Source of the DNA: Candidatus Woesearchaeota archaeon
Lineage (GTDB): Archaea > Nanobdellota > Nanobdellia > Woesearchaeales > ARS49
Assembly (NCBI GenBank): GCA_026394935.1
Contig: JAPLZR010000042.1
Coordinates: 1 to 33,551, forward strand
DNA length: 33,551 bases
Direction of reading: 5' to 3'
Under the pieces are notes generated by a model that did not search any database, was not told where the DNA came from, and worked only from the letters and a program-made list of their open reading frames with translations. Shown piece after piece: positions 3,903 through 24,564 of the stretch. The position numbers and the translations under genes are program-made. Numbering within the stretch: the first letter of the stretch is position 1; each line of letters starts with the position of its first letter.

Positions 3903-4412
3903 TCAGTCTATATTGAGAACGTAAAACAATTCTATCTCATCATCGTGGAACAAATTTCCAACATCTGCTGCGTATTTGAAGCCTTGTTTTTCGTATAATG
4001 CCCTGCCTGGTTGGTTGTCTTTGCCTGCAAACAGGAATATTTTTCTTGGTTTGAATCCGAGTTTTTTGAAGTGTTCTTTGACTGATTGTACTGCGTATTT
4101 GACTATTTTCGTGCCTGTGCCTTTGCCTCTGTAGTCTTCCATGACGTGTACTTCTTCGAATTCTGCTAGTCCGTCGTCAGGGTCTTCTTTGACGTGCCAT
4201 TGCAGCATTCCTACAATCTGTTCATCATCCTTTGCGACTATCGTGAAATTGTGTGTTAGATAGCATTCTACTCTTTTTTGTATGAATTCTTTGACTTTAT
4301 AGTGTTTTAAGTAGTCTATTAATTGTTGTTTGTCCTTGTTTGTTGCTGTTGTGATAGTTATGGTCATTTTCTTGTTTAATCTTGTTTTGTTTAATAATTT
4401 TTCACTGGACAT
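3903..4412 (-). CDS. GNAT family N-acetyltransferase
   Basis: Acetyl-CoA motif A (VMEDYRGKGTGTKIVKYAV) plus the C-terminal GRALYEKQGFKY. An alternative ATG lies at 4367 (MTITITT...). Confidence 0.8.
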   Translation of the reverse strand: MSSEKLLNKTRLNKKMTITITTATNKDKQQLIDYLKHYKVKEFIQKRVECYLTHNFTIVAKDDEQIVGMLQWHVKEDPDDGLAEFEEVHVMEDYRGKGTGTKIVKYAVQSVKEHFKKLGFKPRKIFLFAGKDNQPGRALYEKQGFKYAADVGNLFHDDEIELFYVLNID

Positions 4413-4446: not shown

Positions 4447-7400
4447 ATGTTGTTGTTAAAACGTTCATTAATTATTTACTATATGGAAAATAATTTAATT
4501 GTGAGGAAGGAGCACCCTAACACCAAGGAAGAGGTAGAGGGCGTTTTAAACAGTACAATTAAGCAGTGGTTTTATTCTCGTTTCCCTAATTTTTCTTCTC
4601 CTCAGCTGTTTGGCGTGTTTGAGATACACTCAAGGAACAATATTCTTGTTTCAGCTCCTACTGGTGCAACAAAGACGCTCACCGCTTTCTTGTCCATTCT
4701 TAATGAGCTTGTTGATAGTGCTGAGAAGGGTGTTTTGCAGGACAAGATTTACTGTGTCTACATTTCTCCGCTAAAAGCATTAAGTAATGACATTTCCAAG
4801 AACCTGAAAGAACCATTAGAACAAATTGAGAACATTGCTGGCAAAAAGTTGGGCATTCGTGTTGCTGTAAGAACAGGCGATACTACTCAGGCTGAAAAAA
4901 GCAAGATGCTTGCTAAGCCTCCTCACATTTTGATTACAACTCCTGAATCTTTAGCCATTCTTCTCTCATCCACTAAGTTTCGTGACCATTTGATGAATGT
5001 TGAGTGGTGTATTGTTGACGAGATTCACGCTTTGGCTGAGAACAAGCGTGGCACTCATTTGTCTTTGTCTTTGGAGCGTCTTCAGCATATTTCCCCTGGT
5101 TTGTGCCGTGTTGGTTTGAGTGCTACTGTTGCTCCGATTGAGGAGATTGCTGAGTTTCTTGTTGGAAACAGGCCTTGTAAGATTGTTGATATTCAGTTCC
5201 TGAAAAACTCTGATTTGAAAGTCCTCTCTCCTGTTGACAATCTTATCGACACTCCTCACGCTGCTGCGCATCATGCCATGTACACCCTAATTGACGAATT
5301 GATTCAGGAGCATAAGACGACTTTGATTTTCACTAACACCAGGAGTGCTACTGAGCGTGTTGTTGACCATTTAAAAAACCGTTTTCCAAGCAAGTATCTT
5401 GGTAATATTGGCACTCATCACGGCAGTATGAGTAAGCGCAGTCGTTTAGAGATTGAGAATAAGTTGAGGAATGGTGAGTTGAAGGCTGTTGTTTGTTCTA
5501 CTTCTTTGGAATTGGGTATTGATATTGGTTATATCGACCTTGTTATCTGTCTTGGCAGTCCTAAGAGTGTTGCGCGTTTCCTGCAAAGAGCTGGTCGTAG
5601 TGGTCATCGTTTGAGTGAGACTGTTAAGTCCAGGATTATTGTGATGGACCGTGATGATTTGGTTGAGTGTGCTGTTCTTCTTAAAAGCGCGATTGAAAAG
5701 AAGATTGATCGTGTTCACATTCCGAGGAATGCTTTGGACGTTCTTGCTCAGCAGTTGATTGGTATGGCTTTGGAGCAGGTTTGGGAAGAAAGAGATTTGT
5801 TCAAGACTGTTAAGCAGAGTTATTGTTACAAGGACTTGAAATTGGGTGATTTTAATCAGATTTTGAGTTATTTGGCTGGTGAGTTTGCTGAGTTGGAAGA
5901 CCGTCATATTTACGCTAAGATTTGGCGTGAGGATGGCAAGGTTGGCAAGAGGGGTAAGTTAACTCGTGTTATCTATATGACTAATATTGGCACTATTCCT
6001 GATGAATCTTTTATTACTGTTAAGGTTGGTACTGAAACTGTTGGTATGCTTGATGAGGGTTTTGTTGAGCGTATGAAGCCTGGTGATGTTTTCGTGCTTG
6101 GTGGCGATACTTACATGTTTAAGTTCACCAGAGGTATGGTTGCTCAGGTGTCTGCTTCTGCTAATCGTCCTCCTACTGTTCCGCGCTGGGTTAGCGAAAT
6201 GTTGCCGTTAAGCTTTGACCTGGCAAACGAAATCGGGAGATTTAGGCGTTTGATGCTTGACAAGTTTAATGAGGGTGAGAATAAGGCTTCAATTTTGAAG
6301 TTTATTAATGAGCATTTGTATGTTGAAGATAAGGCTGCTAATGCGATTTATGAGTACTTTAAGGAGCAGTTTGATTATTGTAAGCACATTCCTAATGATA
6401 GGTCAATCTTGGTCGAGTATTATCAGGATGAGCGTGACCAAAAAATCATTTTTCACAGCTTGTTCGGCAGGAGAGTTAATGATTGTTTGAGCAGAGCTAT
6501 TGCTTTTGCTATTAGCAGGACTGAGCATAAGGATGTTGAATTGGGTATTAGCGATAATGGTTTTTACATTGCTGGTGGAAAGAAGCTTAACCCGATTAAA
6601 GCTATTAAACTGCTTAAGTCTGATAAATTAAACCTTATAATGAATACTGCTATTGAGAAATCTGAAGTGTTTAAGCGTCGTTTCCGTCATTGTGCTACTC
6701 GTTCTTTGATGATTTTGCGTAATTATCTTGGTCATCAGAAGAATGTTGGACGTCAGCAGGTTAGTTCTATGATTTTGATGAGTGCTTTGAAGCAGTTGGA
6801 TCCTGATTTTGGCATTTTGAAAGAAGCAAGAAGAGAGTGTCTTGAGGATTTGATGGATATTGAGAATACTAAGAAGGTGCTTGAGGGTATTGAAAAAGGA
6901 ACTATTAAGCTTGTTGAGATTGAAACTTTTATTCCTTCTCCTTTTGCTTTGAATCTTGCATTGCAGGGTTATGCTGATGTTTTGCGTATTGAGGACAAGT
7001 ATGAGTTTTTGCGCAGGATGCACGAGCAGATTTTGGCAAGGATTGCTGGTAAGAATGTGGAATACGTTAATCCTAAGTCTTTTGTTGACAAATCCTCTGG
7101 TGAGCGTAATGAGTTTAAGGAAATTTTGAAGCGTGAGGCTTGGAATTTGAAGCGCGTGCCTAAGTTTGCCAAGGCTGAACTAGTGAGAATTATTGATGGT
7201 GAAAGGCGCAATATTAATGCTAAATTCATTGAGGCTGTTAGGAAGTATCGTGATGAAATCGAGAAGTCTTGGCCTGATGAGTTGAAAAAGTTCTTTTTTA
7301 ACGTGTTTGATGACCTTAAAACTGATGATTTTTCTTATGAGGACTTTTGGACTGAGGAGTCTGTTAAGGAGGAGTCTAAGGTTGAGGAGGAGAAGCAGTT

Positions 7401-7611
7401 GCTTTTCGAGCAGTTCAATATTGCTGCAAAGAGGGCTAATGTTGACCCTCAGGTTCGTTATGATGTTTACAAGATGATTGCTGGCGATAAGGAGGGCTTC
7501 CGGGATGATACTATTAAATGGTTGAAATCTTTGTTCAGCAAGGCTGTTTCTTCTGTCTGGAAGGATGATATAGCTAAGTTTTTACAGAAAAAATTAAAAG
7601 AGCAGTCATAA
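4447..7611 (+). CDS. lhr: Lhr-type ATP-dependent DEAD/DEAH-box helicase (superfamily 2) with a long charged C-terminal extension
   Basis: Motifs seen: Walker A (SAPTGATKT), motif II (VDEIH), SAT, QRAGRSGH. A DEAD-associated-type region follows (GGDTYMF, RRFRHCA). ATG 4483 (MENNLIV) is a plausible alternative start given the TATA position. Confidence 0.9.
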   Translation: MLLLKRSLIIYYMENNLIVRKEHPNTKEEVEGVLNSTIKQWFYSRFPNFSSPQLFGVFEIHSRNNILVSAPTGATKTLTAFLSILNELVDSAEKGVLQDKIYCVYISPLKALSNDISKNLKEPLEQIENIAGKKLGIRVAVRTGDTTQAEKSKMLAKPPHILITTPESLAILLSSTKFRDHLMNVEWCIVDEIHALAENKRGTHLSLSLERLQHISPGLCRVGLSATVAPIEEIAEFLVGNRPCKIVDIQFLKNSDLKVLSPVDNLIDTPHAAAHHAMYTLIDELIQEHKTTLIFTNTRSATERVVDHLKNRFPSKYLGNIGTHHGSMSKRSRLEIENKLRNGELKAVVCSTSLELGIDIGYIDLVICLGSPKSVARFLQRAGRSGHRLSETVKSRIIVMDRDDLVECAVLLKSAIEKKIDRVHIPRNALDVLAQQLIGMALEQVWEERDLFKTVKQSYCYKDLKLGDFNQILSYLAGEFAELEDRHIYAKIWREDGKVGKRGKLTRVIYMTNIGTIPDESFITVKVGTETVGMLDEGFVERMKPGDVFVLGGDTYMFKFTRGMVAQVSASANRPPTVPRWVSEMLPLSFDLANEIGRFRRLMLDKFNEGENKASILKFINEHLYVEDKAANAIYEYFKEQFDYCKHIPNDRSILVEYYQDERDQKIIFHSLFGRRVNDCLSRAIAFAISRTEHKDVELGISDNGFYIAGGKKLNPIKAIKLLKSDKLNLIMNTAIEKSEVFKRRFRHCATRSLMILRNYLGHQKNVGRQQVSSMILMSALKQLDPDFGILKEARRECLEDLMDIENTKKVLEGIEKGTIKLVEIETFIPSPFALNLALQGYADVLRIEDKYEFLRRMHEQILARIAGKNVEYVNPKSFVDKSSGERNEFKEILKREAWNLKRVPKFAKAELVRIIDGERRNINAKFIEAVRKYRDEIEKSWPDELKKFFFNVFDDLKTDDFSYEDFWTEESVKEESKVEEEKQLLFEQFNIAAKRANVDPQVRYDVYKMIAGDKEGFRDDTIKWLKSLFSKAVSSVWKDDIAKFLQKKLKEQS

Positions 7612-7623: not shown

Positions 7624-7956
7624 ATGACCGTTCGTTATCTTGCTTGGAACAAGCCTCGTTTGCCTACAGAGGAAGAGTTGAAAAAGCAGTTGACTAAAGA
7701 GGGTTTGAAGCCTTATATCGAGCTTATGGAGCGTGATGAGGCTTCTGAAGTGCACCAGCACAGGTATGATGAGACTCGTGTTCTTGTTTCCGGCAGGGTG
7801 GAGTTTTCCGCTGAGGGCAGGACTTATTCGTTAAAGCCTGGTGACCGTGTTGATTTGGAAAGGGACACTCCTCATTTGCTGAAGAATCTGGAGCGCGGTC
7901 AGAGTGTTATGCTTTGCGCTGAGAAGGGCAAGGTTGTTTATGTTGAGATTTATTGA
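7624..7956 (+). CDS. Cupin domain protein
   Basis: Cupin motif 1 is HQHRYDETRVLVSG (HxH-x3-E-x6-G). A motif-2-like GDRVDLERDTPHLLKN (H-x3-N) is also present. Confidence 0.7.
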   Translation: MTVRYLAWNKPRLPTEEELKKQLTKEGLKPYIELMERDEASEVHQHRYDETRVLVSGRVEFSAEGRTYSLKPGDRVDLERDTPHLLKNLERGQSVMLCAEKGKVVYVEIY

Positions 7957-8031
7957 GTTTTCTAGTATTTAAATGGATTTCGAAAGCAATAAAAGTATAG
8001 AAAACAGTATAGATGTTGGAAAAGTGATATC

Positions 8032-8894
8032 ATGACTATAACATCTCCGTTGAAAAAAAGCATCAGGGCAGTTTTAAATAGTTTGACTAGGTTAAAAACT
8101 GCAGAAATAGTCTATACTGATAGGTTTAGTGGAAAGAGAAAATCAGTAATTGCAGACCAGCTTATTTTTAACAATAATGATTACTTGGCATATGTTAACA
8201 GTATTGATTATTATCTGCCGTTCAATAGAATTGAGGAAATAAAGTCTGATGACTCTTTGTTATGGTCAAGAAAAGTTTTTGAGAAGGAAAATAAGCTAAA
8301 AGTAATTAACCATATGATTGATGGTCTGAAAAAAAACGGACTGTTTACGGCATTCATGCTGACGATTTATTCACGCGTGATGAACGTCATACGTTCAAAA
8401 CAGCAGAAGAAGCTCTTGATTTTGCATTGCGTCAAAACAGTGAAGTTTCAGCATTTGATTTTTATAATGGAGGACACGGTTTTATGGCGGACGCAGCTAA
8501 ATCATTGCTTCTTTTTGTCTTAAGAAAGGAAAGAAAAGATGAAGAAAGACTGAGGAAAAAGCGTTTTGATGAAATGGAAGAAGAGTATGCTAGAAAGAAT
8601 AAGATAGAAGCTAAATTGACTTCTGAAGAGCTTGAATTGAGGGAAAAGATTTTGATAGCATGGATTAGATTCTATGATGGTCCTGGGTCTCACAATGACC
8701 CTAAAACTTGCCCTCCAGAACGTCGCAAAGGATTAATTGAAACACTAAATATAATGAAAGAAATAGACCTAAAAGCAGATCTCAAAAAAATGAGAAATCT
8801 TTTAACACCTAAAGAATACAAACGTTTTTTGCCAATTTATAATTATTTCAAAAAGACAGGCAAATTCAGCATTCCTGGATTTAGGGGTGAGTAA
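8032..8894 (+). pseudogene. Orphan gene interrupted by a -1 frameshift at an A8 run (track ORFs 8032..8523 and 8427..8894 are its two halves)
   Basis: Frame 3 is open from 8322 and reads protein-like (KKRTVYGIHADDLFTRDERHTFKTAEEALDF...). Frame 1 after GLKKN reads as low-quality hydrophobic text. The span is 863 nt, and one extra A in a8329-8336 gives a 287-aa ORF. Confidence 0.55.
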
Positions 8895-8925
8895 GATAAA
8901 ACAACAAGGGAGATAACAATCTAAA

Positions 8926-9459
8926 ATGTTTGAAAAAATAAACTTTGGACCGGGAAAAGTATTCAATAATGACCTTAAAGGAATTAGTGTAAACACTTCA
9001 AATAAAGAATGGTTGAAAAAAGTTTGTGATACGCAGGACCTTTTCATGGTGGATTACCCCGAAGGATATGTAATTCATGTTGGATGGTTTTACAAATCAA
9101 AGCCGGAAAATGGGCGATTTACGGTTTCTTTTTTTAAAAGCCGCAATCTGATAAAGGAGAACTACAATAATAACTTGATGATAAAGAAGAAATGCTGCAG
9201 TACATTAAAATCACTTGATAAGACTGTCAGGAAATTTAATGAGATAATCAAAAAAAGGCTGTCAAAAGATCAGGAATTATATAACAAAGAAAAGCCCACA
9301 ACTTTCAAGGAATTTTTGAAATCAATGGATATGACGCCTGCTATGGGAAGTCCTTTGCTGAAGCACCTGCCTAACAAAAAATTCCTGCCTTTGATTGAAA
9401 AAGAAATGAAGAAAGATATTCAGCCTCACATTCTTACAAATCCTGCTATGAAAAGATAG
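8926..9459 (+). CDS. Hypothetical protein (orphan)
   Basis: 177-aa ATG ORF, Lys/Asn-rich, A-rich coding strand. No motif recognised. Confidence 0.55.
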   Translation: MFEKINFGPGKVFNNDLKGISVNTSNKEWLKKVCDTQDLFMVDYPEGYVIHVGWFYKSKPENGRFTVSFFKSRNLIKENYNNNLMIKKKCCSTLKSLDKTVRKFNEIIKKRLSKDQELYNKEKPTTFKEFLKSMDMTPAMGSPLLKHLPNKKFLPLIEKEMKKDIQPHILTNPAMKR

Positions 9460-9485
9460 ATGAGATTGCTGGCTATGGCACAAAA

Positions 9486-9860
9486 ATGAACGGCAGGGTG
9501 CTTTGGTCTGCTCAGGAAGCCTTGAAAATATTGGAAAAGGAGATATGCTCGCCCAAGGATTTCACTTTATATATTGACAGTAAAAAGAGCTTGGACGAGA
9601 TAAAGGATGCTTTGGTCAAAAAGTTAAAAGCGAGAATTGCGTCTTATCACGCTGTTGAACTGGATGGAAACCGCATCGAGCTGTGGTACGATAGAAACTA
9701 TGACCCTAAAGCTAAAACAAGACAAAGCAAATATCTGGTCACGCTGACGAGAACAGACCTGTCGAGAAGCCTTGATGAACAAAAAAAACTGAAGGCCGAG
9801 CTTGAGGTCTTTTTCAAGAATTTGGGTAAAACCTATTTATCGTCAAGATTATTTTCATAA
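9486..9860 (+). CDS. Hypothetical protein; stand-alone copy of the C-terminal module of the next gene
   Basis: 124-aa ATG ORF that aligns by eye with aa ~345-443 of ORF 9866..11197 (YIDSKKSLDEIK...LDGN..E...KLKAELEVFFKNLGKTYLSSRLF). Confidence 0.6.
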   Translation: MNGRVLWSAQEALKILEKEICSPKDFTLYIDSKKSLDEIKDALVKKLKARIASYHAVELDGNRIELWYDRNYDPKAKTRQSKYLVTLTRTDLSRSLDEQKKLKAELEVFFKNLGKTYLSSRLFS

Positions 9861-9865
9861 CTAAA

Positions 9866-11197
9866 ATGAACATAAAAACAATTGACGGCGTTGAATTGGA
9901 GACTAAAAAAGAAACTTTAGTCTATCGGGGCAAGGAAATCAGGATAGATAAAGATATGCCTGGCGATAAATATGCTTTATCCATTGAAAGGGAATTTGGC
10001 TCTAAACTTAAAACTTGCATTAACTGCAAATATTTTGAATATACGCCTTTAAGCATCGACATGGGCGGGGCGTTTAAAGGTCGTTGTCTTTTCAGGGAAA
10101 AAGCAGCGGAAAAAGCCAGAAAAGCCTGGTTCTTCAAGCCTAAAAATTATGATGAGATGCAGCGTCCTGACTATGGCATAGTTTCTATATTTTTTTGCTG
10201 CGACCATTTTGAATTTGAGCCGTACAGCGAGGAAAAAAAGAAAAATGTCATGGAAAAAGCCGAATCTGTTTTTTTGAGCGGCCAATACCGGGCTGAGAAA
10301 GTCCTGAAAAAAATAGCTATGGCAGTGTGTGTTCTGAGGGAGAACGGGATAGACCGTGATTTACTGCGGAAATTTACTGTTATGCTTAGAAAAAACAGGG
10401 TGGTTCAAAAGCGTAAAATTTCTTCTTTACTTAAAAGGCGTTTGGCAGTGTTGTTTTTGGAATGGTCGGCAAAGCATAAGATTGAATGGTCAGAAGGGAA
10501 TGGAGAGATTTACCTGTTTTTTACTTATATTCATATCGCAGTTGCCAAGTTGCTTAAATTGAATAAGAGCGCCGAGGAAATTGTTTTTGAAATTGCTACA
10601 AAAATCAATATTTACGGCAGGGAGGGCGTGCTTTTCCTGGATGAAGCGATTGAATATTATTCTTTTAGGATGAGTCGTGCCCTGAAGTATCTTCTTCACG
10701 TTGAAGCTTTGGAACTGGCAGGTCTTGACAAAAAAGTTAAAGATGAAAGGCTTTATAGAAAAGGCAGGGACATCATTGAACAAGCTAATGATGAGATGAG
10801 ATTTTTCGGCAGGGAAAGAGTTGCAAGAGCAAAGAAAAGGGACGAAAATCTTCATAATGAACCAAATAATAAGTATATGCCTGCTAGGGATTTCATGTTT
10901 TACCTGGACTCTGAAAAAGAGCGGGATGAAATCAAAAAATTATTGATTGAGGAATTGGGCGCAAAAACAGATGATCGCGGATCTATAACGCTCGATGGTA
11001 ATTATGTCGAGATTAAAAGAAACAAAAAAGATGTGCCTGGAAGCAACATAGTGGTAGAGTATAATTTTGATATTTATGTGATTTGCAGTAATGATGCCAA
11101 TACTCTCAGTCATCAAAGGAAACTGGCGAAGAAGCTTGAAAGATTCTTCAAAAAGATAGGGAAGACTTCTTTGGTTTCAGAATTGTTTATGGACTAA
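9866..11197 (+). CDS. Hypothetical protein with an N-terminal Cys/His cluster and a C-terminal module shared with ORF 9486..9860
   Basis: 443-aa ATG ORF. CINC-x19-C-x36-CC-x-H lies at aa 51-114. The C-terminus reads FYLDSEKERDEIK...LDGNYVE...KLAKKLERFFKKIGKTSLVSELF. Confidence 0.65.
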   Translation: MNIKTIDGVELETKKETLVYRGKEIRIDKDMPGDKYALSIEREFGSKLKTCINCKYFEYTPLSIDMGGAFKGRCLFREKAAEKARKAWFFKPKNYDEMQRPDYGIVSIFFCCDHFEFEPYSEEKKKNVMEKAESVFLSGQYRAEKVLKKIAMAVCVLRENGIDRDLLRKFTVMLRKNRVVQKRKISSLLKRRLAVLFLEWSAKHKIEWSEGNGEIYLFFTYIHIAVAKLLKLNKSAEEIVFEIATKINIYGREGVLFLDEAIEYYSFRMSRALKYLLHVEALELAGLDKKVKDERLYRKGRDIIEQANDEMRFFGRERVARAKKRDENLHNEPNNKYMPARDFMFYLDSEKERDEIKKLLIEELGAKTDDRGSITLDGNYVEIKRNKKDVPGSNIVVEYNFDIYVICSNDANTLSHQRKLAKKLERFFKKIGKTSLVSELFMD

Positions 11198-11226
11198 AGA
11201 ATTTATCATATTTGTTGCAGAACACT

Positions 11227-12066
11227 TTATTGAGTTTTTTTTGATAATCTTTTTCTTGCTTCTGGATTTTCAATGTAGTTTTCTGGTGTTGTGACTTTTT
11301 CTCCACTTCTTTGTTCGAGTTCTTTTCTTGCTATTCCTGCCACTTCGCCTCCTTGTTTGGAGGCAGTTTTGTTTTCTACAAATCCTTGTGCGTTTTTGCC
11401 TTTGGCTATTTTTGTTGTTGATGCCTCGCCGAGCATAGTGAAGATGATTTCCAAATCGTTCATGTGGTCTCTCAGATTCTCGTTTTTTAGTCCTTTGAAA
11501 TTCTTGTATTCTTCAGGAGTCATTCCGAATGTTGCTTTGGATATTTCTGCTGTCAGGATTGCGTATTCCCTGCCCTCGCTTACTCCTCGTTTGCCCCATT
11601 CGTCGGTTAGTTCGTCTCTTATTGCTATTCCTCTGACTCTTTTTTCTATCCAAGCGTCAGAATACCCTTTTGCCCTATAGAGCTCCTTCATTCGTTTTTG
11701 GGCTAATTCTGGATTCTGTATTTCCTCAACGCGTTCATATCCTACTTGGGCAAGCCATTGCTTGAATGGTTCTGCCTTTGGGGATGGTATTGATTGAATG
11801 ATTCTAAACGTATTCTTTGTACTCGCGCAGTCTGTCTCTCTTAATTTGCCATCTTCAGCTGTTAATTTCAACTGTACGATTTTATCGTACGGTTCAAATC
11901 CTTCTTCTGAAAGCTTTTGTTTCAGGTCAGACCAATACCTTTTGGGCAAAGTGCTGGCTTCTAAAGCATTCACTACATCAACAACAGAGAAATACCATTC
12001 ATCATTAAACCAAGTTCTTCTTATCTGTTTTCCCTGAAATACAACTAGGGCGTTATGTGCATCCAT
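11227..12066 (-). CDS. Bro-N domain protein (DinD / phage antirepressor-like)
   Basis: The N-terminus (VVFQGKQIRRTWFNDEWYFSVVDVVNALE...PKRYWSDLKQKL) is typical of Bro-N. A C-terminal helical region (DELTDEWGKRG...LTAEISKATFG) resembles DinD-type proteins. Confidence 0.75.
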   Translation of the reverse strand: MDAHNALVVFQGKQIRRTWFNDEWYFSVVDVVNALEASTLPKRYWSDLKQKLSEEGFEPYDKIVQLKLTAEDGKLRETDCASTKNTFRIIQSIPSPKAEPFKQWLAQVGYERVEEIQNPELAQKRMKELYRAKGYSDAWIEKRVRGIAIRDELTDEWGKRGVSEGREYAILTAEISKATFGMTPEEYKNFKGLKNENLRDHMNDLEIIFTMLGEASTTKIAKGKNAQGFVENKTASKQGGEVAGIARKELEQRSGEKVTTPENYIENPEARKRLSKKTQ

Positions 12067-12179
12067 GATATTTTTCTTCGTGAATTCTGTTTATAAACCT
12101 TGTGCGAGATTGTCCAGTGTCCAGTGACGGGCAAAAGATTAAAAATACTCGTTGTTTATTGCATTAAAAGGTGATATCT

Positions 12180-12719
12180 ATGCCGTATGAACAGAAAAAT
12201 TTTGATTTGCTCGGTATTTTTAGTGATGTTATGCTGAAGAACCATTTTACTTTGTATCAGGGCTATGTTAGCAACGCTAACAAGCTTCTTGACGAACTGA
12301 AGGGAAAGGAAGGTCCTGTTTTTGCTGAACTTAAAAGAAGGTTTGGCTGGGAGTTTAACGGTATGCGCTTGCACGAATTGTATTTTGGAAATATGTCCAA
12401 GAATCCTAAAAGGCTGAATGGCAAACTTTTGAAGCAGATTGAGAAGGACTTCGGCAGTTTTGCTGCTTGGGAGAAGGATTTCAAAGCAACTGGCAGTATG
12501 CGTGGCATCGGCTGGGTTGTCTTATACAACGACAATGGCAAATTGTTTAACTGTTGGGTTAACGAGCATGATGTCGGTCATCTTGCCGGCTGCACTCCGT
12601 TACTGGTGATGGACGTCTTCGAGCACGCTTATTTGACTGATTTTGGCATTAAGAAAGCAGATTACATTGAAGTTTTTATGAAAGTGATTGATTGGGAGGC
12701 TGTATCTAAACGCTTATGA
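12180..12719 (+). CDS. sod: Fe/Mn superoxide dismutase
   Basis: DVFEHAYL (the D-x-W-E-H-A-Y-Y signature) and GWVVL are present, with upstream His candidates (LKNH, RLHELYF). A GGTGAT SD precedes ATG 12180; the track start at 12171 is a GTG inside the SD. Confidence 0.85.
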   Translation: MPYEQKNFDLLGIFSDVMLKNHFTLYQGYVSNANKLLDELKGKEGPVFAELKRRFGWEFNGMRLHELYFGNMSKNPKRLNGKLLKQIEKDFGSFAAWEKDFKATGSMRGIGWVVLYNDNGKLFNCWVNEHDVGHLAGCTPLLVMDVFEHAYLTDFGIKKADYIEVFMKVIDWEAVSKRL

Positions 12720-13344: not shown

Positions 13345-14106
13345 ATGAATAAACCGCGGGTTCTTCTTTCATTGGATACTCCTGATGCTTTTGAATTAGT
13401 CAGGGATTTGCCTTTGGACAGCCGAGTTGATGTTTTCCGTGGTGTTTCTTCTGTTGAGAATTGCCCAGCAATTGCAGAGCATCACGCTATTTGGAATAAT
13501 TGGGATGCTATTGTTGCTGATTCTGTTCTGAACCTGGCGTTTCTTTTATCTTCTCACGCTGAACGCCCAGTCATTCCCATATCGCTTCCCCTAATGCAGG
13601 GTTATTGTGCCCTGTCTGTTGGTGATGACCAGTTTCAAAAAGCCGTTGGTTTTGCAGCTGATTTGCTGACGCAAGAGTACAAGCGAGTGGTGCTGTATAC
13701 TGCGCGATCTATCATACACGACCCTCTGCCATTTGCACTGCTTGGTAAGCTTGGTGTTGCGTATTATGTGGATTTGCCGCGCGGTCATGTTAAAAACCCT
13801 AAAGGAGATGAGCTTCCGCTTTTGTTGGAGCCGGCGGGCCATGTTATTGCCAAGCTGGAAGAGCACAAAAGATATGGTCTTGCTTGTTCGCGCAGCATTG
13901 TAAAAAATCATTATATTGCGGTTGTTGACAGTGATGAACATATTGCTCTTCTCGCTGCCAGAGTTATTGCAAGGCATGATCCGGATGTTGCGAAGAAACT
14001 TCAAGCTTATTATGAAGAGCAAAAGGAAAAGTACGAGCCGTTTAGAGCGGTTATTCCGCTTAGAAGTGTAAAACTAGGGGGTGGGATTGATGAGCGACAT
14101 AAGTGA
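13345..14106 (+). CDS. Hypothetical protein; degenerate PurE-like paralog
   Basis: The N-terminal ~85 aa align by eye with the adjacent PurE (RVLLSLDTPD vs AVIFAGSDSD; AIVADSVLNLAFLLSSHAERPVIPISLP vs YIAVAGGTDALSGTASFHSINPVISCPP). The GSxSD and SAHK motifs are lost. The C-terminal ALLAARVIARHDPDVAKKL resembles the PurE C-terminal helix. An SD precedes ATG 13345. Confidence 0.5.
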   Translation: MNKPRVLLSLDTPDAFELVRDLPLDSRVDVFRGVSSVENCPAIAEHHAIWNNWDAIVADSVLNLAFLLSSHAERPVIPISLPLMQGYCALSVGDDQFQKAVGFAADLLTQEYKRVVLYTARSIIHDPLPFALLGKLGVAYYVDLPRGHVKNPKGDELPLLLEPAGHVIAKLEEHKRYGLACSRSIVKNHYIAVVDSDEHIALLAARVIARHDPDVAKKLQAYYEEQKEKYEPFRAVIPLRSVKLGGGIDERHK

Positions 14107-14638
14107 GAGCGTTATATCATATGAAGTTATGGAAGCAATAAAGCAAAATAAGGGTTTTGCTGTTATATTTGCGGGTTCTGACAGCGACAGGCCTCATATC
14201 GACAAGCTGTCTGCAGCATTAAAAGAGTATCAGGTTCCTCATCAGGTAAGAATTTGTTCTGCGCACAAACAACCTGAAGCATTGCAAAAACTTGTTGGGG
14301 CTTATGATTCTATGGGAACACTTGCATACATAGCTGTTGCAGGTGGAACAGATGCTTTGTCAGGCACTGCAAGCTTCCATTCAATAAACCCGGTTATTAG
14401 TTGTCCTCCGGACGCGCCTAATGATACTTGTCTCAGGAATCCTCCTGGAAGCTCGAATGCGTACATACCAAATCCAAAGAACGCTGCAAGGTTTGTGGCG
14501 CAAATGTTTTCGCACTTGCCGGACACGCCTTACAGAAGACTGCTGGAAGCTGAAAAAACTAAAAAAGTTCTGGCTCTTGAAAAAGCCGATGGTGAACTAA
14601 GTAAGTTTCCTTATCAGCCTCAAGAGGTGAAAAAATGA
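14090..14638 (+). CDS. purE: Class II PurE (AIR carboxylase type)
   Basis: Motifs GSDSD, CSAHK and AVAGGTDALSG are present. NPVISCPP closely resembles the AIRc half of animal PAICS (YPVISCPP). An SD (agggggtggg) precedes ATG 14090; the track start is GTG 14081. Confidence 0.85.
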   Translation: MSDISESVISYEVMEAIKQNKGFAVIFAGSDSDRPHIDKLSAALKEYQVPHQVRICSAHKQPEALQKLVGAYDSMGTLAYIAVAGGTDALSGTASFHSINPVISCPPDAPNDTCLRNPPGSSNAYIPNPKNAARFVAQMFSHLPDTPYRRLLEAEKTKKVLALEKADGELSKFPYQPQEVKK

Positions 14639-15789: not shown

Positions 15790-17226
15790 ATGGCAAGAAA
15801 AACCATTCTTGAGCCTGGCAGGACTTTTCAGGAGTTTTCTATACTGCCGGGTTTTACAAGAGCGGACTGCTCTATACCCAACATCAATCTTGAAACAAGG
15901 CTTGCAGAGAATCTCGTGTTAAGGATTCCTTTGCTCAGTTCTGCGATGATGTCTGTTACTGGTTATGAGATGGCTTTGGCGCTTGGCAAGGAAGGGGGTC
16001 TTGGTGTTCTTCCTGTAAAACTATCAATAGCCGAGCAGTCAGATATTGTTTGCAGCATAAAGAATTATGAGATGGCTTTTGTTGAGGAGCCGATTACTGT
16101 TCGTGAAAATGCGAGTATTGATGAAGCTCTCAGGATTGTTGAACAGCAGGGGCATTCCAAAGTTCCTATTGTCAACAGAAACAATGTCTTTCTTGGCTTG
16201 TTTAATTATAATGAGTATTTGAAAATGCAGGTGTCCCGTAATGAACCCATCACCAAAGCTATGCTAAACGCTGAGAAGGTGCTTCACGTTCAAGAGCCTG
16301 GTTTGACTGTTGTTGCCGCCAGGGAGATTCTTGAGGAGAAGCAGGAGCATTACTTGGTCGTTCTTGATGACCAGCAGCGTCTTGTCAAGTTGGCGTTCAA
16401 GAAGGATGAGGAAAAGATTAAGGTTGGTGTTGCTATTTCTACTCATGAAGGCTGGGAGGAGCGTGCTGAGGCAAATCTTGCTGAGGGTGCTGACTTGATT
16501 GTTATTGACACTTCTGATGCTTTTAATGAATTTACAGGCAACGTTGTCTCTCGGTATAAAGAGATGGAAAGAAGTGTTCCTTTGTGTGCAGGCAATGTTG
16601 TGACGTATGAGGGCGCTATGTATTTGATGGAAAAGGGCGCTGATATGATTAAGGTTGGTATGAGTTCTGGCTCGATTTGTATTACCCAGCGGGAGAAGGC
16701 TGTTGGTCGTGCTCCTATGACTGCTTTGATGAAATGTGACCGTGCAAGGAAGGAATATATGAGAAAAACCAGTCGTTATGTTCCTATCATTGTTGATGGT
16801 GGTGTTGCCTGTCCTGCTGATATGGTGATTGCTCTGTCAATTACTGATGCGGTTATGATGGGCGGCTACTTCAATCGTTTTTTTGAGGCTGCTGGTGAGA
16901 AGATTGATGAGAATGGCAAGCTGACGACCGATGAAAAATCCATGCGCGAGGTTGCTACTTGGGGCGAGGGCTCGTTGAGGGCGATGAATATTGATCGTTA
17001 CAACCAAACTGCCAAGACTTTTTTTGCAGAGGGCGTTGAAGGCACTGTTCCTTACCGCGGCCGCTTGAAGCCTAATCTTAAGCGTGATTTGATGAAGGTT
17101 CGTGCTGCTATGAGCAATGCCGGCTGTTATAATCTTGAACAATTCAGGAAAGAGGCAATTATCGAGCTTAACTCGCCTACTGCAGCATACATTATCGGCA
17201 GTGCTCACGATGTTAAGACTAAATGA
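15790..17226 (+). CDS. guaB: IMP dehydrogenase with a CBS pair
   Basis: Motifs IPLLSSAMMSVT, KEGGLGVL, a CBS-like insert, VIDTSDAF, GNVVTYEGA, catalytic loop GMSSGSICITQ, and IIVDGGV. The start is directly adjacent to the purC stop (taaATG). Confidence 0.85.
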   Translation: MARKTILEPGRTFQEFSILPGFTRADCSIPNINLETRLAENLVLRIPLLSSAMMSVTGYEMALALGKEGGLGVLPVKLSIAEQSDIVCSIKNYEMAFVEEPITVRENASIDEALRIVEQQGHSKVPIVNRNNVFLGLFNYNEYLKMQVSRNEPITKAMLNAEKVLHVQEPGLTVVAAREILEEKQEHYLVVLDDQQRLVKLAFKKDEEKIKVGVAISTHEGWEERAEANLAEGADLIVIDTSDAFNEFTGNVVSRYKEMERSVPLCAGNVVTYEGAMYLMEKGADMIKVGMSSGSICITQREKAVGRAPMTALMKCDRARKEYMRKTSRYVPIIVDGGVACPADMVIALSITDAVMMGGYFNRFFEAAGEKIDENGKLTTDEKSMREVATWGEGSLRAMNIDRYNQTAKTFFAEGVEGTVPYRGRLKPNLKRDLMKVRAAMSNAGCYNLEQFRKEAIIELNSPTAAYIIGSAHDVKTK

Positions 17227-17236
17227 GGTGAAGACT

Positions 17237-18580
17237 ATGCATACAGCGATTATTGGCGCCCAATGGGGCGATGAGGGTAAGGGTAAGATTGTTGACATGC
17301 TTGCTGCCGAGCACGATGTTGTTGTTCGTTATAATGGCGGTCCGAATGCAGGGCATACTATTGTTGTTGGTGATAAGGAGATTATTTTGCATCAGGTTCC
17401 CAGCGGTGCTCCGCAGGGGAAGTTGTGTGTTATCGGCAATGGTTGTGTTGTAAATCCTGATCGTCTTGATGAGGAGTTGAAGCAGTTGTCTGACAATGGG
17501 ACTCCTGCTAATTTGCAGATTTCTGAGCGCGCTCATGTTATTACTCCTTATGATCTTTTGCTTGATGTAGGCTTGGAGATTTATAAGGGCAGGCAGGGCA
17601 AGAGGGTTGGCACGACTTTTCAGGGCATTGGTCCTGCGTACATGTTGAAAGCAGCCAGGACCGGTCTTACTTTTGGAGAGCTTTTGGAAACTGATAATTT
17701 GGCGGGCAGGGTTCAGGAGCTTCACGAATTCACAAAAGCGGTTCTCTCTGCTCTTGGTGTTTCTGGCGAGGATGTTTATTCTGCAATGAATAAAGATGAT
17801 TCTGCTGTGCGTATGAGCCGTGGTTTAAGGGCTTATTTTGAAAAAGAGATGGAGTTCAGAAAGGTATTGGACTCTTTGCAAGGGCATCGTGAGATGCTCA
17901 GCCCTATGGTTAGTGATATTTCTGTTTTGCTTTCTGAAGTTGATGATAATGGTTTGAGCATTCTTTTCGAGGGTGCTCAGGGTACCTTGCTTGATGTAGA
18001 CCACGGAACTTATCCTTACTGCACTGCTTCGAATGCGACTGTTGGCGGTGTTTTTGCAGGCACTGGTTTTGGAGGTCGTGTTGACAGGCGTATTGGTGTT
18101 TTGAAGGCTTACACTACAAGGGTTGGAGAGGGCGCGTTCCCGACTGAATTGAAGGATGAGACTGGTGCGCATATTCAGAAAAAAGGAGGGGAGTTCGGAG
18201 CTACTACAGGCCGTCCGAGGCGTGTTGGCTGGCTTGACCTTGTTATTGGCGAGTATGCTGCGCGTGTTAACGGTTTGACAGAGCTTGCTTTGACTAAGCT
18301 TGATGTTCTTGATGATTTGGATGAGATTGCTGTTTGTACAAGGTATAGCATTGATGGCAAGCCCGTCAGGCGTTTCCCTGCAAGCCCTCGGCTTCTTTCT
18401 CGCGCAGAGCCTTTCTACCAAGTATTTGGCGGGTGGAAGGCTGACACTACTAAGGCAAAAAGTTATGCAGACCTTCCTCCAAACGCGCAGGAATACATTT
18501 CTTTTATTGAGCAGGTTCTTCGCCTGCCTGTCAAATATGTTTCCAACGGTCCGAAGAGGGATCAGGTGATTGTGAGATGA
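17237..18580 (+). CDS. purA: Adenylosuccinate synthetase
   Basis: Motifs GAQWGDEGKGKIVD, GGPNAGHT, GTTFQGIGPAY and GATTGRPRRVGW are present. An SD (gaggtga) lies 6 nt upstream of ATG 17237. The track start 17117 overlaps guaB and is rejected. Confidence 0.95.
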   Translation: MHTAIIGAQWGDEGKGKIVDMLAAEHDVVVRYNGGPNAGHTIVVGDKEIILHQVPSGAPQGKLCVIGNGCVVNPDRLDEELKQLSDNGTPANLQISERAHVITPYDLLLDVGLEIYKGRQGKRVGTTFQGIGPAYMLKAARTGLTFGELLETDNLAGRVQELHEFTKAVLSALGVSGEDVYSAMNKDDSAVRMSRGLRAYFEKEMEFRKVLDSLQGHREMLSPMVSDISVLLSEVDDNGLSILFEGAQGTLLDVDHGTYPYCTASNATVGGVFAGTGFGGRVDRRIGVLKAYTTRVGEGAFPTELKDETGAHIQKKGGEFGATTGRPRRVGWLDLVIGEYAARVNGLTELALTKLDVLDDLDEIAVCTRYSIDGKPVRRFPASPRLLSRAEPFYQVFGGWKADTTKAKSYADLPPNAQEYISFIEQVLRLPVKYVSNGPKRDQVIVR

Positions 18581-21715: not shown

Positions 21716-22651
21716 ATGAGACGCAAAGTCATCCAGATTGCTGAATCTACACAGTTGATTTCATTGCCCAGGAAGTGGGCTTTGCAGCATAATATCAAGA
21801 AAGGCGATGAGCTCGAGGTTGAGATTGATGGCAGCAAGATAGTAGTGAATACCGACAGCACTCCTCCGTATACGAGCATCGAGGTTGATGTGTCTAATCT
21901 GGACAGGACCTCAATAGTCTTTATGATACGCGCGTTATACAAAAAAGGGTACGATGAAATAAAGCTAAGATACAATGCGCCCACAGCCCATCACTATCGC
22001 ACAGAAAAAGAGGTTAACGTCAGCACAATTGTCCACCAGGAAGTCAGCAGGTGTCCTGGTTTGGAGGTTATTGAGCAGAAGGATAATTATTTCATCCTGA
22101 AAGCTATCTCTGTTGCCGACCCTAAAGAGCTTGACAACATTCTGCGCAGGACATTTATTTTGATCTCTGACACCAACAAGGATTTTGTTCTTGCTTGCAA
22201 AAACAATGACCGGTCTTTGCTTGAATCTATCGAGGAAAAGCACGATAACGCGACGCGTTTCATTAATCATTCCTGCCGTCTTATCACAAAGAGTCGGCAC
22301 AATTCAAACACTGCTCACTTTTTGTATACCATTGTTTCAATGATGGATAAGATTCTTGACGTTATGAAGGACGGCGCCCGTTATATGCTGCTTTATAACA
22401 AAAAAATACGGCCTGAAACATTCGAGATTCTTGATTTTATGTGCAAATCTTATGGTACATTTTATGAGATGTTCTACAAGTTTGATCTGACGAAGGTGCA
22501 CAAGATGAATGAGGACAGGGAAACAATACACCAGCGGGTTCAGAAAGCGAAGAATATTCCAAAAGAGGAAATTCAGCTGCTTTATGACATGCACCAATCC
22601 CTTGAATTGTACCGCGCATTGACAGAGGCGCGAATGTCGATTGAGTATTAA
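21716..22651 (+). CDS. AbrB/SpoVT-domain + PhoU-like phosphate uptake regulator
   Basis: The N-terminus (RKVIQIAESTQLISLPRKWALQHNIKKGDELEVEIDGSKIVV) is a SpoVT/AbrB swapped-hairpin pattern. It is followed by a ~200-aa helical region with two PhoU-like repeats. Confidence 0.7.
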   Translation: MRRKVIQIAESTQLISLPRKWALQHNIKKGDELEVEIDGSKIVVNTDSTPPYTSIEVDVSNLDRTSIVFMIRALYKKGYDEIKLRYNAPTAHHYRTEKEVNVSTIVHQEVSRCPGLEVIEQKDNYFILKAISVADPKELDNILRRTFILISDTNKDFVLACKNNDRSLLESIEEKHDNATRFINHSCRLITKSRHNSNTAHFLYTIVSMMDKILDVMKDGARYMLLYNKKIRPETFEILDFMCKSYGTFYEMFYKFDLTKVHKMNEDRETIHQRVQKAKNIPKEEIQLLYDMHQSLELYRALTEARMSIEY

Positions 22652-24213: not shown

Positions 24214-24512
24214 ATTCGCTATCTGGCGCGCTCCGCTGTCTCTTGGCAGGGTGTAAACGTGTTCGCTGTTGAAAAGTGTTTGTATGATTTTTTCTTGTGA
24301 CGGGTCGCAGACTACAACAAGGGGACTGTCGGGTCTTTTTTTGATAAGTCCTGCTATCTGCGATTGTCCTATGACCGGGTCTAGCGGGTTAAAAGCATCG
24401 TAGAAAATTACGTTTACATTTGAATCAGCCGCGTGTTGTAAATCCTGGCTTCTGAAAGAATATTCTGCACCCTCAACTGCACTGCGTACTCTGGTGAGGA
24501 AATACCAAAAAC

Positions 24513-24524: not shown

Positions 24525-24564
24525 CCGAATTTATGACTACCACGCAGTAGCACTAGGGGGGAGA

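What the first reader, a model, noticed from the sequence alone, without database searches (positions are those of the whole stretch)
7957..12170. Orphan gene island (four unknown genes + Bro-N gene) inserted between housekeeping genes, with a shifted base composition
Seen:
- Five consecutive genes lie between cupin and sod (8032-8894, 8926-9459, 9486-9860, 9866-11197 on +; 11227-12066 on -).
- I can assign only the last one, to the Bro-N / DinD-like family.
- The four + genes have an A-rich coding strand. Hand counts: 9181-9240 has 27 A / 16 T, and 9721-9780 has 22 A / 10 T.
- Flanking core genes are T-biased. Hand counts: 5041-5100 has 10 A / 22 T, and 17341-17400 has 14 A / 21 T.
- One island gene is frameshifted, and two share a domain.

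Established: Bro-N domains are typical of phage/virus and mobile-element proteins.

Inference:
- This is a horizontally acquired block, either a remnant of an integrated element or a conflict/defence-type island.
- I saw no integrase, tRNA or clear att repeats, so the mobile-element call is not supported directly.
Basis: partly seen in the sequence, partly recalled or inferred. Interest (0 to 1): 0.65.

Follow-up and report, generated by a model that had tools for sequence, protein, structure and literature searches.

The report
Variable accessory island in DPANN archaeon
A 4.2-kb block of foreign-looking genes sits in a slot between two housekeeping genes of a tiny symbiotic archaeon, a slot whose content differs in every relative examined; it is a real, horizontally acquired and partly decaying insert made of very rare genes plus one common phage-type gene, not a recognisable new system.

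Summary
Window 7955-12137 is an insert between a cupin gene and sod in a Woesearchaeales-like (DPANN) archaeal contig. In four related genomes the same slot is empty (35 bp), holds a ParE toxin gene with a small upstream ORF (two genomes), or holds another unknown gene. The four + strand genes have lower GC than the core + strand genes (0.357 vs 0.43). They also lack the host's strong third-codon-position T excess (AT3 skew -0.03 vs -0.51, p=0.0005).

ORF1 is broken: its only full-length relative bridges the frameshift, and about 106 nt are missing. ORF3 is a paralogue of the ORF4 C-terminus. ORF2 has no relative.

Two pieces have rare relatives: the ORF1 C-terminal half and a new 4-Cys domain at the ORF4 N-terminus. 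These lie in the same order at the 5' edge of TrbC-pilin/VirB4 type IV secretion clusters on metagenome contigs.

The Bro-N gene is a full-length member of PADLOC candidate family PDC-S13. It is common in phages and bacterial plasmids and looks adapted to the host strand bias, so it is probably an older arrival.

There is no integrase, tRNA, att repeat or secretion machinery here. Best reading: cargo of a variable slot, comprising a recent, decaying fragment of a T4SS-associated module plus a phage-type Bro-N gene. Moderate interest.

The parts
7955..12137 (.). Whole insert (4183 bp, GC 0.369 vs 0.420 for the rest of the window) in the cupin|sod slot.
   Evidence: blastn against the closest relative L001: homology ends at 7954 and resumes at 12138. 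GC.
7957..8031 (+). Intergenic region upstream of ORF1. It is AT-rich and has TATA-like motifs (TATTTAAAT 7966-7974; TAAAAGTATAG 7990-8000). Presumed archaeal promoter of the four-gene cassette.
   Evidence: Read directly from the sequence. Promoter function is inferred, not tested.
8032..8336 (+). ORF1, 5' part (frame 1): a small beta-rich N-terminal domain, 57% identical to P0003 residues 1-111.
   Evidence: Weak PF04457 (MJ1316) hit, E 3e-4, below cutoff. Low-confidence model resembles Sm/SH3-like barrels.
8329..8336 (+). A8 run (A_AAA_AAC in frame 1), lying inside the only interval (8322-8360) where frame 1 can pass into frame 3.
   Evidence: One of only 7 homopolymers of 8 nt or more in the window.
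8337..8894 (+). ORF1, 3' part (frame 3). Positions 8361-8507 are 53% identical to P0003 residues 150-198. The last ~120 codons are 44% identical to a stand-alone 128-aa gene of the T4SS-cluster contigs L005-L010.
8926..9459 (+). ORF2: 177 aa, 17% Lys, net charge +16. No detectable relative.
   Evidence: (self hit only).
9486..9860 (+). ORF3: 124 aa, a stand-alone paralogue of the ORF4 C-terminal domain.
   Evidence: (P0007).
9866..11197 (+). ORF4: 443 aa, three parts (4-Cys domain, low-confidence helical middle, ORF3-like C-terminal alpha/beta domain).
9866..10240 (+). ORF4 residues 1-125: a 4-Cys domain (C51-x-N-C54 ... C74 ... C112, all invariant in 6 sequences). Presumed zinc-binding.
   Evidence: pLDDT 70-86 in the model. 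Metal binding is inferred.
10886..11188 (+). ORF4 residues 341-441: the ORF3-like domain.
   Evidence: 35% identity, E 2e-16. One search gives beta-alpha-beta-beta-beta-alpha topology.
11227..12066 (-). Bro-N / DinD-like gene (279 aa). The Bro-N domain spans residues 14-107 (nt 11746-12027). Full-length member of PADLOC PDC-S13 and phrog_15286.
   Evidence: PDLC04920, E 1e-121, 403 bits; E 3e-98.
12067..12137 (-). Region upstream of the Bro-N gene. It has a palindromic TATA-like box, TTTATAAA, at 12090-12097, 24-31 nt from the ATG.
   Evidence: Read. Promoter function is inferred.

Best explanation
The block is horizontally acquired cargo in a variable intergenic slot (cupin|sod) of a Woesearchaeales-type DPANN archaeon. 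It has two components of different age.

(1) A co-directional, tightly spaced four-gene cassette (ORF1-4).
- It encodes basic, lysine-rich proteins.
- It is a recent, already decaying fragment of a gene module that elsewhere sits at the 5' edge of monoderm-type (VirB4 + TrbC-pilin) type IV secretion/conjugation clusters.
- It arrived without the secretion machinery. ORF1 has been inactivated by a frameshift with loss of about 35-38 codons.
- The surviving products are most likely nucleic-acid- or protein-binding accessory or regulatory proteins rather than enzymes. They are a 4-Cys, presumably zinc-binding, domain fused to a helical region and an alpha/beta domain that is duplicated as ORF3.

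(2) A convergent Bro-N/DinD-like gene of a family that travels on phages and plasmids and inside defence loci.
- It combines a DNA-binding Bro-N domain with a DinD-type C-terminal domain.
- It has been resident long enough to take on the host's strand-specific base bias.

Insertion probably occurred by recombination in or next to the conserved flanks, not by a site-specific integrase.

Shown: insert boundaries, variability of the slot, composition contrast, frameshift, paralogy, family memberships, gene order in relatives. Inferred: direction and timing of transfer, zinc binding, binding/regulatory roles, insertion mechanism.
For: Host: AspRS is 97-88% identical to Woesearchaeota/Nanoarchaeota-type MAGs.

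Slot variability:
- L002 has cupin followed by sod after 35 bp.
- L001 and L097 carry a ParE-family toxin gene (PF05016, E 2e-10) with a small ORF just upstream on the same strand (72 aa in L097), taken to be the antitoxin from position only.
- L098 carries an unrelated 292-aa gene.
- Homology to L001 breaks exactly at 7954 and 12138.

Composition:
- Core + genes have AT3 skew -0.51+-0.21. Cassette genes have -0.03 (p=0.0005). GC is 0.43 vs 0.357.
- The cassette matches the T4SS-cluster contigs L004/L005/L011 (AT3 +0.06 to +0.16, GC 0.36-0.42).

Decay: P0003 residues 1-111 align to frame +1 (8032-8352) and residues 150-198 to frame +3 (8361-8507). So 38 codons correspond to 8 nt.

T4SS link:
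- The ORF4 4-Cys domain has only 5 relatives among 1.84 billion representative proteins.
- Three of them (L004, L005-10, L011) are followed by a collinear set of genes that includes a TrbC/T4SS pilin in L004 and L011. In L011 the set continues to PrgI/TraC-like genes and a VirB4-like ATPase.
- The ORF1 C-terminal half matches the 128-aa gene two genes upstream of the Cys gene in L005-L009 (44% identity, E 1e-18). The order is the same as in the window.

Bro-N gene:
- PDC-S13, 403 bits.
- 45-62% identical copies on the 80 IMG/VR contigs kept, out of 190 matching stretches.
- 63% identity to a Paracaedimonas plasmid gene.
- One copy is embedded between cas4 and cas1b in Arcobacter.
- Its AT3 skew is +0.49, like other minus-strand host genes, against 0.03-0.13 in bacterial homologues.

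The proteins are basic, with net charge +7 to +16.
Against: - No integrase, relaxase, VirB4, coupling protein, tRNA or flanking direct repeats in the island or the window. The mobile-element origin therefore rests on distant homology to two domains and on gene order.
- The relatives are few and on short, taxonomically unplaced contigs. T4SS clusters of reduced-genome symbionts can be chromosomal and not conjugative (PMC12102498, shown there for Patescibacteria). T4SS-associated therefore does not prove mobile.
- ORF2, ORF3 and the ORF4 middle have no relatives in those clusters.
- The frameshift could be a homopolymer assembly error or slippage at the A8 run plus an in-frame length difference, in which case ORF1 is intact.
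- The age argument for Bro-N rests on one gene.
- Part of the A excess reflects lysine-rich proteins (positions 1 and 2), though the third-position contrast does not.
Confidence: 0.6

Rival explanations
1. The cassette (ORF2-4, with or without ORF1) is a working, uncharacterised conflict or defence module, and the slot is a defence hotspot. ORF3 acts as a decoy or partner of the homologous C-terminal domain of ORF4. The Bro-N PDC-S13 gene is a second, independent defence gene.
For: - Different cargo occupies the slot in relatives: a ParE-type toxin gene in two genomes and an unknown 292-aa gene in a third.
- Bro-N is a PADLOC candidate, and a homologue is embedded in a CRISPR-Cas operon.
- Another Cys-domain protein (P0008) lies directly downstream of a protein with a Scabin-like ADP-ribosyltransferase toxin domain.
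- Gene spacing is operon-like: 31, 26 and 5 nt.
- The best, non-significant fold matches of the ORF4 model (~90-residue alignments; which part of ORF4 aligned is not reported) are heterodimerising IntS9/IntS11 C-terminal domains.
Against: - No PADLOC, PHROG, Pfam or NCBIfam match for any of the four genes.
- No enzymatic or effector domain is recognisable.
- PDC systems are untested candidates.
- ORF1 is disrupted.
- Only five genomes sample the slot, and the cargo in L098 and the ParE gene and its partner ORF (L001, L097) get no PADLOC hit.
- Fold matches have E > 0.1 on a model with pLDDT 59.
Confidence: 0.22
2. The genes are native, fast-evolving lineage-specific genes of this DPANN lineage, for example for host interaction through a chromosomal type IV secretion system. 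They were lost or replaced in the relatives examined, rather than gained here.
For: - DPANN genomes are rich in lineage-specific orphans.
- T4SS clusters of reduced-genome symbionts are often chromosomal and lack a relaxase (PMC12102498, for Patescibacteria).
- One Cys-domain gene (P0009) sits in an ordinary chromosomal context syntenic with window 26894-29546.
- Synteny around the slot is generally fluid.
Against: - Third-position AT skew of the cassette is about 0, while every long core + strand gene shows -0.4 to -0.77. Long residence should have imposed the host bias, as it appears to have on Bro-N.
- GC is 6-7 points lower.
- The closest relative (cupin 88%, sod 90%) lacks all five genes.
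- No T4SS genes are in the 33.5-kb window.
Confidence: 0.12
3. The block is an assembly or binning artefact: a chimeric join of foreign reads into the contig.
For: - The source is evidently a metagenome assembly.
- Contigs of two relatives end at or near this slot (L097 starts 32 bp before cupin; L117 starts inside sod).
- The exact proteins occur on one contig only.
Against: - Both flanks return to the same syntenic partner genes, with clean breakpoints at 7954 and 12138.
- The slot holds inserts in three independent assemblies.
- Bro-N carries the host's strand bias.
Confidence: 0.04

Closest known systems
Core-gene-flanked variable 'hotspots' for defence and accessory cargo, as described for Pseudomonas aeruginosa and E. 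coli
   Same: A fixed slot between conserved housekeeping genes carries different cargo in different genomes (empty, ParE toxin gene with partner ORF, unknown gene, this island). There is no integrase or att site, and the cargo has atypical composition.
   Different: The host is a DPANN archaeon. Only five genomes were sampled. Only one cargo gene (Bro-N/PDC-S13) has even a candidate defence label. The four-gene cassette matches nothing in PADLOC.
Integrative/conjugative elements and plasmids with monoderm-type (MPF-FATA) type IV secretion systems, and the chromosomal T4SS clusters of reduced-genome symbionts (PMC12102498)
   Same: Two cassette pieces (ORF1 C-terminal half and ORF4 4-Cys domain) have their only relatives, in the same order, immediately upstream of clusters with a TrbC-like pilin. 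In L011 the cluster also holds PrgI/TraC-like proteins and a VirB4-like ATPase. Base composition resembles those contigs.
   Different: The window has no pilin, VirB4, coupling protein, relaxase or integrase. The cassette's other genes are not shared with those clusters. It is unknown whether those clusters are mobile.
Bro-N domain proteins (PF02498), E. coli DinD (NF008573) and PADLOC candidate PDC-S13
   Same: An N-terminal Bro-N domain above Pfam's threshold. The C-terminal half aligns to the DinD model over positions 149-278. Full-length 403-bit match to PDLC04920 and 329-bit match to phrog_15286.
   Different: It scores 20 bits against DinD's 242-bit equivalog cutoff, so it is not a DinD orthologue. 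It is encoded in an archaeon, whereas the relatives found are bacterial plasmid and phage genes. The family's function is untested.
Type II toxin-antitoxin cargo (ParE/RelE family) in the same slot of relatives
   Same: It occupies exactly the cupin|sod position, on the minus strand like the Bro-N gene.
   Different: No toxin-antitoxin gene is recognisable in the window's island.

Membership tests
Horizontally acquired genomic island | Absent from the syntenic locus of related genomes. | tested here: met
   L002 has cupin followed by sod after 35 bp. L001, L097 and L098 have other cargo. Breakpoints are at 7954 and 12138.
Horizontally acquired genomic island | Base composition or codon bias unlike the host. 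| tested here: met
   For the + cassette, GC is 0.357 vs 0.430 and AT3 skew is -0.03 vs -0.51 (p = 0.0003-0.0005). Not met for the Bro-N gene, which fits the host strand bias. Synonymous-codon likelihood is not significantly different (p=0.26).
Horizontally acquired genomic island | Mobility genes (integrase, transposase), a tRNA target, flanking direct repeats. | tested here: not met
   No such Pfam domain in the island ORFs. No tRNA. Only short, low-identity repeats, none bracketing the insert.
Integrative conjugative element / conjugative plasmid (MPF-FATA T4SS) | VirB4 ATPase, pilin or other mating-pair-formation genes. | tested here: not met
   No VirB4, AAA_10, TrbC or T4SS_pilin domain in the Pfam scans of the island ORFs and 21 flanking ORFs. 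They are present only on relatives' contigs: a TrbC-like pilin in L004 and L011, a VirB4-like ATPase in L011.
Integrative conjugative element / conjugative plasmid (MPF-FATA T4SS) | Relaxase and coupling protein. | tested here: not met
   No such domain in the Pfam scans of the island ORFs and 21 flanking ORFs. The relatives' contigs are too short to judge.
Bro-N family (PF02498) | Domain match above Pfam's gathering score. | tested here: met
   43.6 bits against 25.6, residues 14-107, E 5e-11.
DinD (NCBIfam NF008573 equivalog) | Whole-protein score above the curated cutoff. | tested here: not met
   20.4 bits against 242. Only the C-terminal half aligns.
PADLOC PDC-S13 (phage defence candidate) | Full-length match to the family HMM. 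| tested here: met
   PDLC04920, E 1.3e-121, 403 bits, residues 1-275 on profile positions 1-277 of 286.
PADLOC PDC-S13 (phage defence candidate) | Demonstrated anti-phage activity. | not testable with these tools
   The source paper calls the 145 PDC systems untested. PDC-S13 is not named in the text or supplements held.
MJ1316 / DUF504 RNA-end recognition domain (PF04457), for the ORF1 N-terminus | Domain match above the gathering score, shared by homologues. | tested here: not met
   21.8 bits against 26.3, E 3e-4. The 57%-identical homologue P0003 gives no hit at E<=0.01. A low-confidence model gives Sm/SH3-like small-barrel matches at E 0.06-0.2. This is a lead only.
Known defence systems (PADLOC) or phage protein families (PHROGs), for ORF1-4 | Any HMM match. 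| tested here: not met
   No PADLOC hit. PHROG best E values are 0.035-0.09.

The most novel reading that the evidence does not exclude
ORF1-4 represent a previously undescribed accessory module of archaeal (DPANN) type IV secretion/DNA-transfer systems. It is built around a new 4-Cys zinc-binding domain and a duplicated alpha/beta partner domain (ORF3 / ORF4 C-terminus). The module can move on its own into chromosomal slots and acts in inter-cell or element-host conflict, for example as regulator, exclusion or immunity factor. On this reading the cupin|sod slot would be a defence/accessory hotspot in DPANN archaea; I know of no described one, but I did not search the literature for it.
Probability: 0.15. 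Interest if true: 0.6.

Novelty: new member of a known kind. Interest (0 to 1): 0.35.

Why it matters
DPANN archaea are uncultured, reduced-genome symbionts whose gene exchange and conflict systems are almost unknown. This locus gives:
- a clean example of a core-flanked variable slot in such a genome;
- a compositional clock (third-position strand bias) that separates an older from a recent arrival;
- two tiny protein families (a 4-Cys domain with five known relatives and an ORF1C-like family) that mark the 5' edge of VirB4/TrbC secretion clusters.

If those clusters prove to be conjugative, the families would be handles for finding mobile elements of DPANN archaea.

The practical value is modest. 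No function can be assigned, and one gene is broken.

Tried and rejected
Profile and sequence searches:
- Pfam, NCBIfam, PADLOC and PHROG scans of ORF1-4 gave nothing above threshold.
- PDB sequence search of ORF1, ORF2, ORF4 and Bro-N gave nothing.
- The word-index search of 5.8 billion proteins found only self hits for ORF4 and ORF2, and one relative (P0003) for ORF1. That search missed the 44%-identical L005 gene, so the orphan status of ORF2 rests on a less sensitive search.

Structure:
- The AlphaFold model of ORF4 (pLDDT 59) gave no match below E 0.06 in either library: PDB best 0.12, BFVD best 0.06 (model).
- The ORF1 model (pLDDT 52.5) gave only Sm/SH3-like small-barrel matches at E > 0.06. 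I treat these as not informative.

Collection scans:
- Viral contigs with the Cys-domain, ORF3/ORF4C and ORF1 alignments: no relatives.
- Metagenome contigs with the ORF1C and Cys-domain alignments: none.
- Genome contigs with the Cys-domain alignment: only the archaeon DeMMO1_7 contig already found.
- Exact look-up of ORF4 in the assembly index: not on record.

Other:
- att-like repeats, tRNA and Rfam: none.
- Similarity of the ORF4 middle region to the gene upstream of the Cys gene in L011 is too weak to use (26% over 104 aa, E 0.01-0.06 in a tiny database).
The taxon of the T4SS contigs is therefore undetermined.
- PDC-S13 is not mentioned in the papers or supplements held.
- Programmed -1 frameshifting at A_AAA_AAC was considered. 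It was neither supported nor excluded, because the only homologue differs in length exactly at the junction.

Full report
**Observation.** The flanking genes are a Cupin_2 protein (7624-7956) and an Fe/Mn superoxide dismutase (12171-12719), followed by a DUF84 NTPase.
- The hand counts are right, except that one value is 21 A rather than 22.
- The 124-aa ORF3 and ORF4 residues 341-441 share a domain: 35% identity over 101 aa, E 2e-16.
- The first gene is split between frame 1 (8032-8523) and frame 3 (open from 8322 to 8894).
- There is no tRNA, no Rfam family and no bracketing repeat.

**Host and neighbourhood.** The contig carries Lhr-type helicase-sized, purine-synthesis, AspRS-class synthetase, RimK and RimB-like protease genes.
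- The synthetase is 97%, 91% and 88% identical to those of three MAGs that rank among Woesearchaeota, Nanoarchaeota and Nanoarchaeia assemblies. Titles reading 'uncultured Methanosarcinales' on third-party MAGs are interleaved with these and look like placeholders.
- The host is therefore a Woesearchaeales-type DPANN archaeon.

**Synteny.** I found the cupin|sod junction in four other genomes.
- L002 (cupin 69% identical): the genes are 35 bp apart.
- L001 (cupin 88%, sod 90%) and L097 (cupin 81%, sod 88%): the gap holds a minus-strand ParE-family toxin gene (PF05016, E 2e-10) with a small upstream ORF (72 aa in L097) that I take to be the antitoxin from its position only; it has no Pfam hit.
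- L098: an unrelated 292-aa minus-strand gene.
- Nucleotide homology between the window and L001 stops at 7954, the cupin stop codon, and resumes at 12138, 33 nt before the sod start. The insert is therefore 7955-12137.
- Both flanks return to the same partners, so a chimeric assembly is unlikely.

**Composition.** The window has a very strong strand asymmetry at synonymous sites.
- Long + strand core genes have third-position AT skew of -0.4 to -0.77.
- Minus-strand genes have +0.07 to +0.67 on their own coding strand. The + DNA strand is thus T-rich whichever way the gene points.
- The four + strand island genes have AT3 skew of -0.13 to +0.09 (mean -0.03, against -0.51+-0.21; Mann-Whitney p=0.0005). 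Their GC is 0.357 against 0.430 (p=0.0003).
The third-position contrast cannot be explained that way.
- The simplest reading is that the cassette has not been in this genome long enough to acquire the host bias.
- The T4SS-cluster contigs that hold its only relatives have the same signature: AT3 +0.06 to +0.16, GC 0.36-0.42.
- The Bro-N gene behaves differently. Its AT3 skew is +0.49, like the other minus-strand host genes, whereas three bacterial homologues show 0.03-0.13. That suggests an earlier, separate arrival. The inference rests on one gene.

**ORF1.** The joined product has one full-length relative, P0003 (442 aa, on a 1.6-kb JGI contig).
- P0003 residues 1-111 align to frame +1 at 8032-8352 (57% identity). 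Residues 150-198 align to frame +3 at 8361-8507 (53%).
- Thirty-eight codons of the relative therefore correspond to 8 nt here, a difference of about 106 nt, which is not a multiple of three.
- Two histories fit. One is a single out-of-frame deletion. The other is an in-frame length difference plus a one-base change in the A8 run (8329-8336), which lies in the only interval where the frames can be joined and forms the slippery pattern A_AAA_AAC.
- I favour a disrupted gene. I cannot exclude an assembly error or slippage.
- The N-terminal domain gives a sub-threshold match to PF04457 (MJ1316) that the homologue does not reproduce. A low-confidence model resembles Sm/SH3-like barrels. These are leads only.
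- The last ~120 residues are 44% identical (E 1e-18) to a stand-alone 128-aa gene on contigs L005-L009, and partly on L010.

**ORF2-4.** ORF2 has no relative in the word-index search and no profile hit.
- ORF4 was searched with full HMMER against 1.84 billion representatives. Apart from itself and ORF3, five proteins match, all through residues 1-125.
- The alignment shows invariant C51, N53, C54, C74 and C112, a four-cysteine signature that I take to be zinc-binding. This is an inference.
- The ORF4 model is confident only for this domain and for parts of the C-terminal alpha/beta domain.
- Foldseek finds nothing below E 0.06 in PDB or BFVD.

**Context of the relatives.** On L004 and L011 the Cys-domain gene is followed by a collinear cluster.
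- The cluster comprises a 405-420-aa secreted, membrane-anchored protein, a membrane protein, a TrbC/T4SS-pilin gene and a ~540-aa protein.
- On L011 it continues with PrgI/TraC-like proteins and a 658-aa ATPase. The ATPase has AAA_10, TraG P-loop and DUF87 domains and is 26% identical (E 1e-45) to Firmicutes VirB4-like conjugal transfer ATPases.
- L005-L010 carry the same cluster type: the 422-aa protein is 41% identical to that of L011. There the order is 128-aa ORF1C-like gene, a 126-aa gene, the Cys-domain gene. This mirrors ORF1, ORF2/3, ORF4 in the window.
- The other two relatives lie elsewhere. P0008 is immediately downstream of a protein with a Scabin-like ADP-ribosyltransferase domain in an archaeal MAG. 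P0009 sits between AspRS and the RimB-like protease of a low-GC contig whose gene order matches window 26894-29546.
- The domain thus occurs in archaeal genomes, at varying loci, and most often at the edge of type IV secretion clusters.
- Whether those clusters are conjugative is open. In Patescibacteria most such clusters lack a relaxase and are thought to be co-opted (PMC12102498).

**Bro-N gene.** It has a Bro-N domain above threshold.
- The DinD-type C-terminal half scores far below the DinD equivalog cutoff.
- It matches PADLOC PDC-S13 (403 bits) and phrog_15286 (329 bits) over its full length.
- PDC systems were proposed by 'guilt by embedding' in known defence loci and are untested.
- Relatives at 45-63% identity are found on 80 listed IMG/VR viral contigs (190 stretches matched), on bacterial plasmids, and in one case between cas4 and cas1b.
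- A palindromic TTTATAAA lies 24-31 nt upstream of its start codon, compatible with archaeal expression. This is an inference.

**Interpretation.** The block is cargo of a variable slot. It combines a recent, decaying fragment of a T4SS-associated module with an older phage/plasmid-type Bro-N gene (confidence 0.6).
- No integrase or att site is present, so insertion through recombination in the conserved flanks is the most economical mechanism. This is an inference.
- Rivals are a working new conflict module (0.22), native fast-evolving genes lost elsewhere (0.12) and an assembly artefact (0.04).

**Comparison and novelty.** The locus behaves like the core-flanked hotspots known from bacteria. 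It shares two gene families with secretion and conjugation clusters.
- It fails the defining tests for an ICE: no VirB4, pilin, relaxase or integrase.
- It also fails the DinD equivalog test.
- It passes the tests for a compositionally atypical, non-syntenic island, for Bro-N and for PDC-S13.
- I rate it a new member of a known kind. Interest is moderate because the host group is poorly known and the two small families may help to find DPANN mobile elements.

**Limits.** No function is established, the sample of relatives is small, and one gene is broken.

Noticed in passing
whole window (e.g. 4447-7611, 26894-28366 on +; 3903-4412, 29617-30105 on -): Extreme strand asymmetry at third codon positions. 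+ strand genes have AT3 skew down to -0.77, and minus-strand genes up to +0.67 on their coding strand. The + DNA strand is therefore T-rich (and G-rich) at synonymous sites whatever the gene direction. This gives a usable clock for foreign DNA in this genome.
   Followed up: partly
window 24565-25815 (also 14081-14638, 30800-31207, 21716-22651): Other + strand genes with near-zero third-position AT skew (-0.05, -0.11, -0.12, -0.29). The 416-aa ORF at 24565-25815 has no Pfam hit, and 1-kb windows across 24501-26250 reach AT skew +0.07 to +0.09. This may be a second atypical patch.
   Followed up: no
L013 3914-4237 (Logan SRR28093593), compared with window 28363-28366: A stand-alone 4-Cys-domain gene (P0009) is inserted between the AspRS-class synthetase and the RimB-like protease/RimK genes of a 26%-GC contig. 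In the window the same two genes overlap with no insert.
   Followed up: partly
L012/L016 17-2716 (MAG archaeon DeMMO1_7, JAGVIO010000065.1): A 562-aa protein with a C-terminal Scabin-like ADP-ribosyltransferase domain (PF22596, E 6e-8) is followed 7 nt later by P0008, a 334-aa protein ending in the 4-Cys domain. The layout resembles a toxin-immunity pair.
   Followed up: no
L178 6986-7882 (Arcobacter cloacae plasmid pACLO, NZ_CP053834.1): A 50%-identical homologue of the island's Bro-N protein is embedded between cas4 and cas1b of a type I-B CRISPR-Cas operon.
   Followed up: no
L001 6-57: The first 52 nt of the cupin gene occur a second time at the end of the relative's contig (92% identical to window 7624-7675). 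This is either a partial duplication or an assembly repeat next to the variable slot.
   Followed up: no
record titles of L001, L017, L020-L022 and others: Third-party-assembled MAGs titled 'uncultured Methanosarcinales archaeon' rank among Woesearchaeota/Nanoarchaeota genomes for both AspRS and SOD. The taxonomic label looks unreliable.
   Followed up: partly
window 8329-8336, 9781-9788, 11235-11242: Three of the seven homopolymer runs of 8 nt or more in the 33.5-kb window lie in the 4.2-kb island. Two of them are in frame inside ORF3 and the Bro-N gene.
   Followed up: no
window 15790-17226 / 17117-18580: The IMP dehydrogenase and adenylosuccinate synthetase ORFs overlap by 110 nt as listed. 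The Pfam match to the synthetase begins at residue 44, so its true start is probably a later ATG.
   Followed up: no
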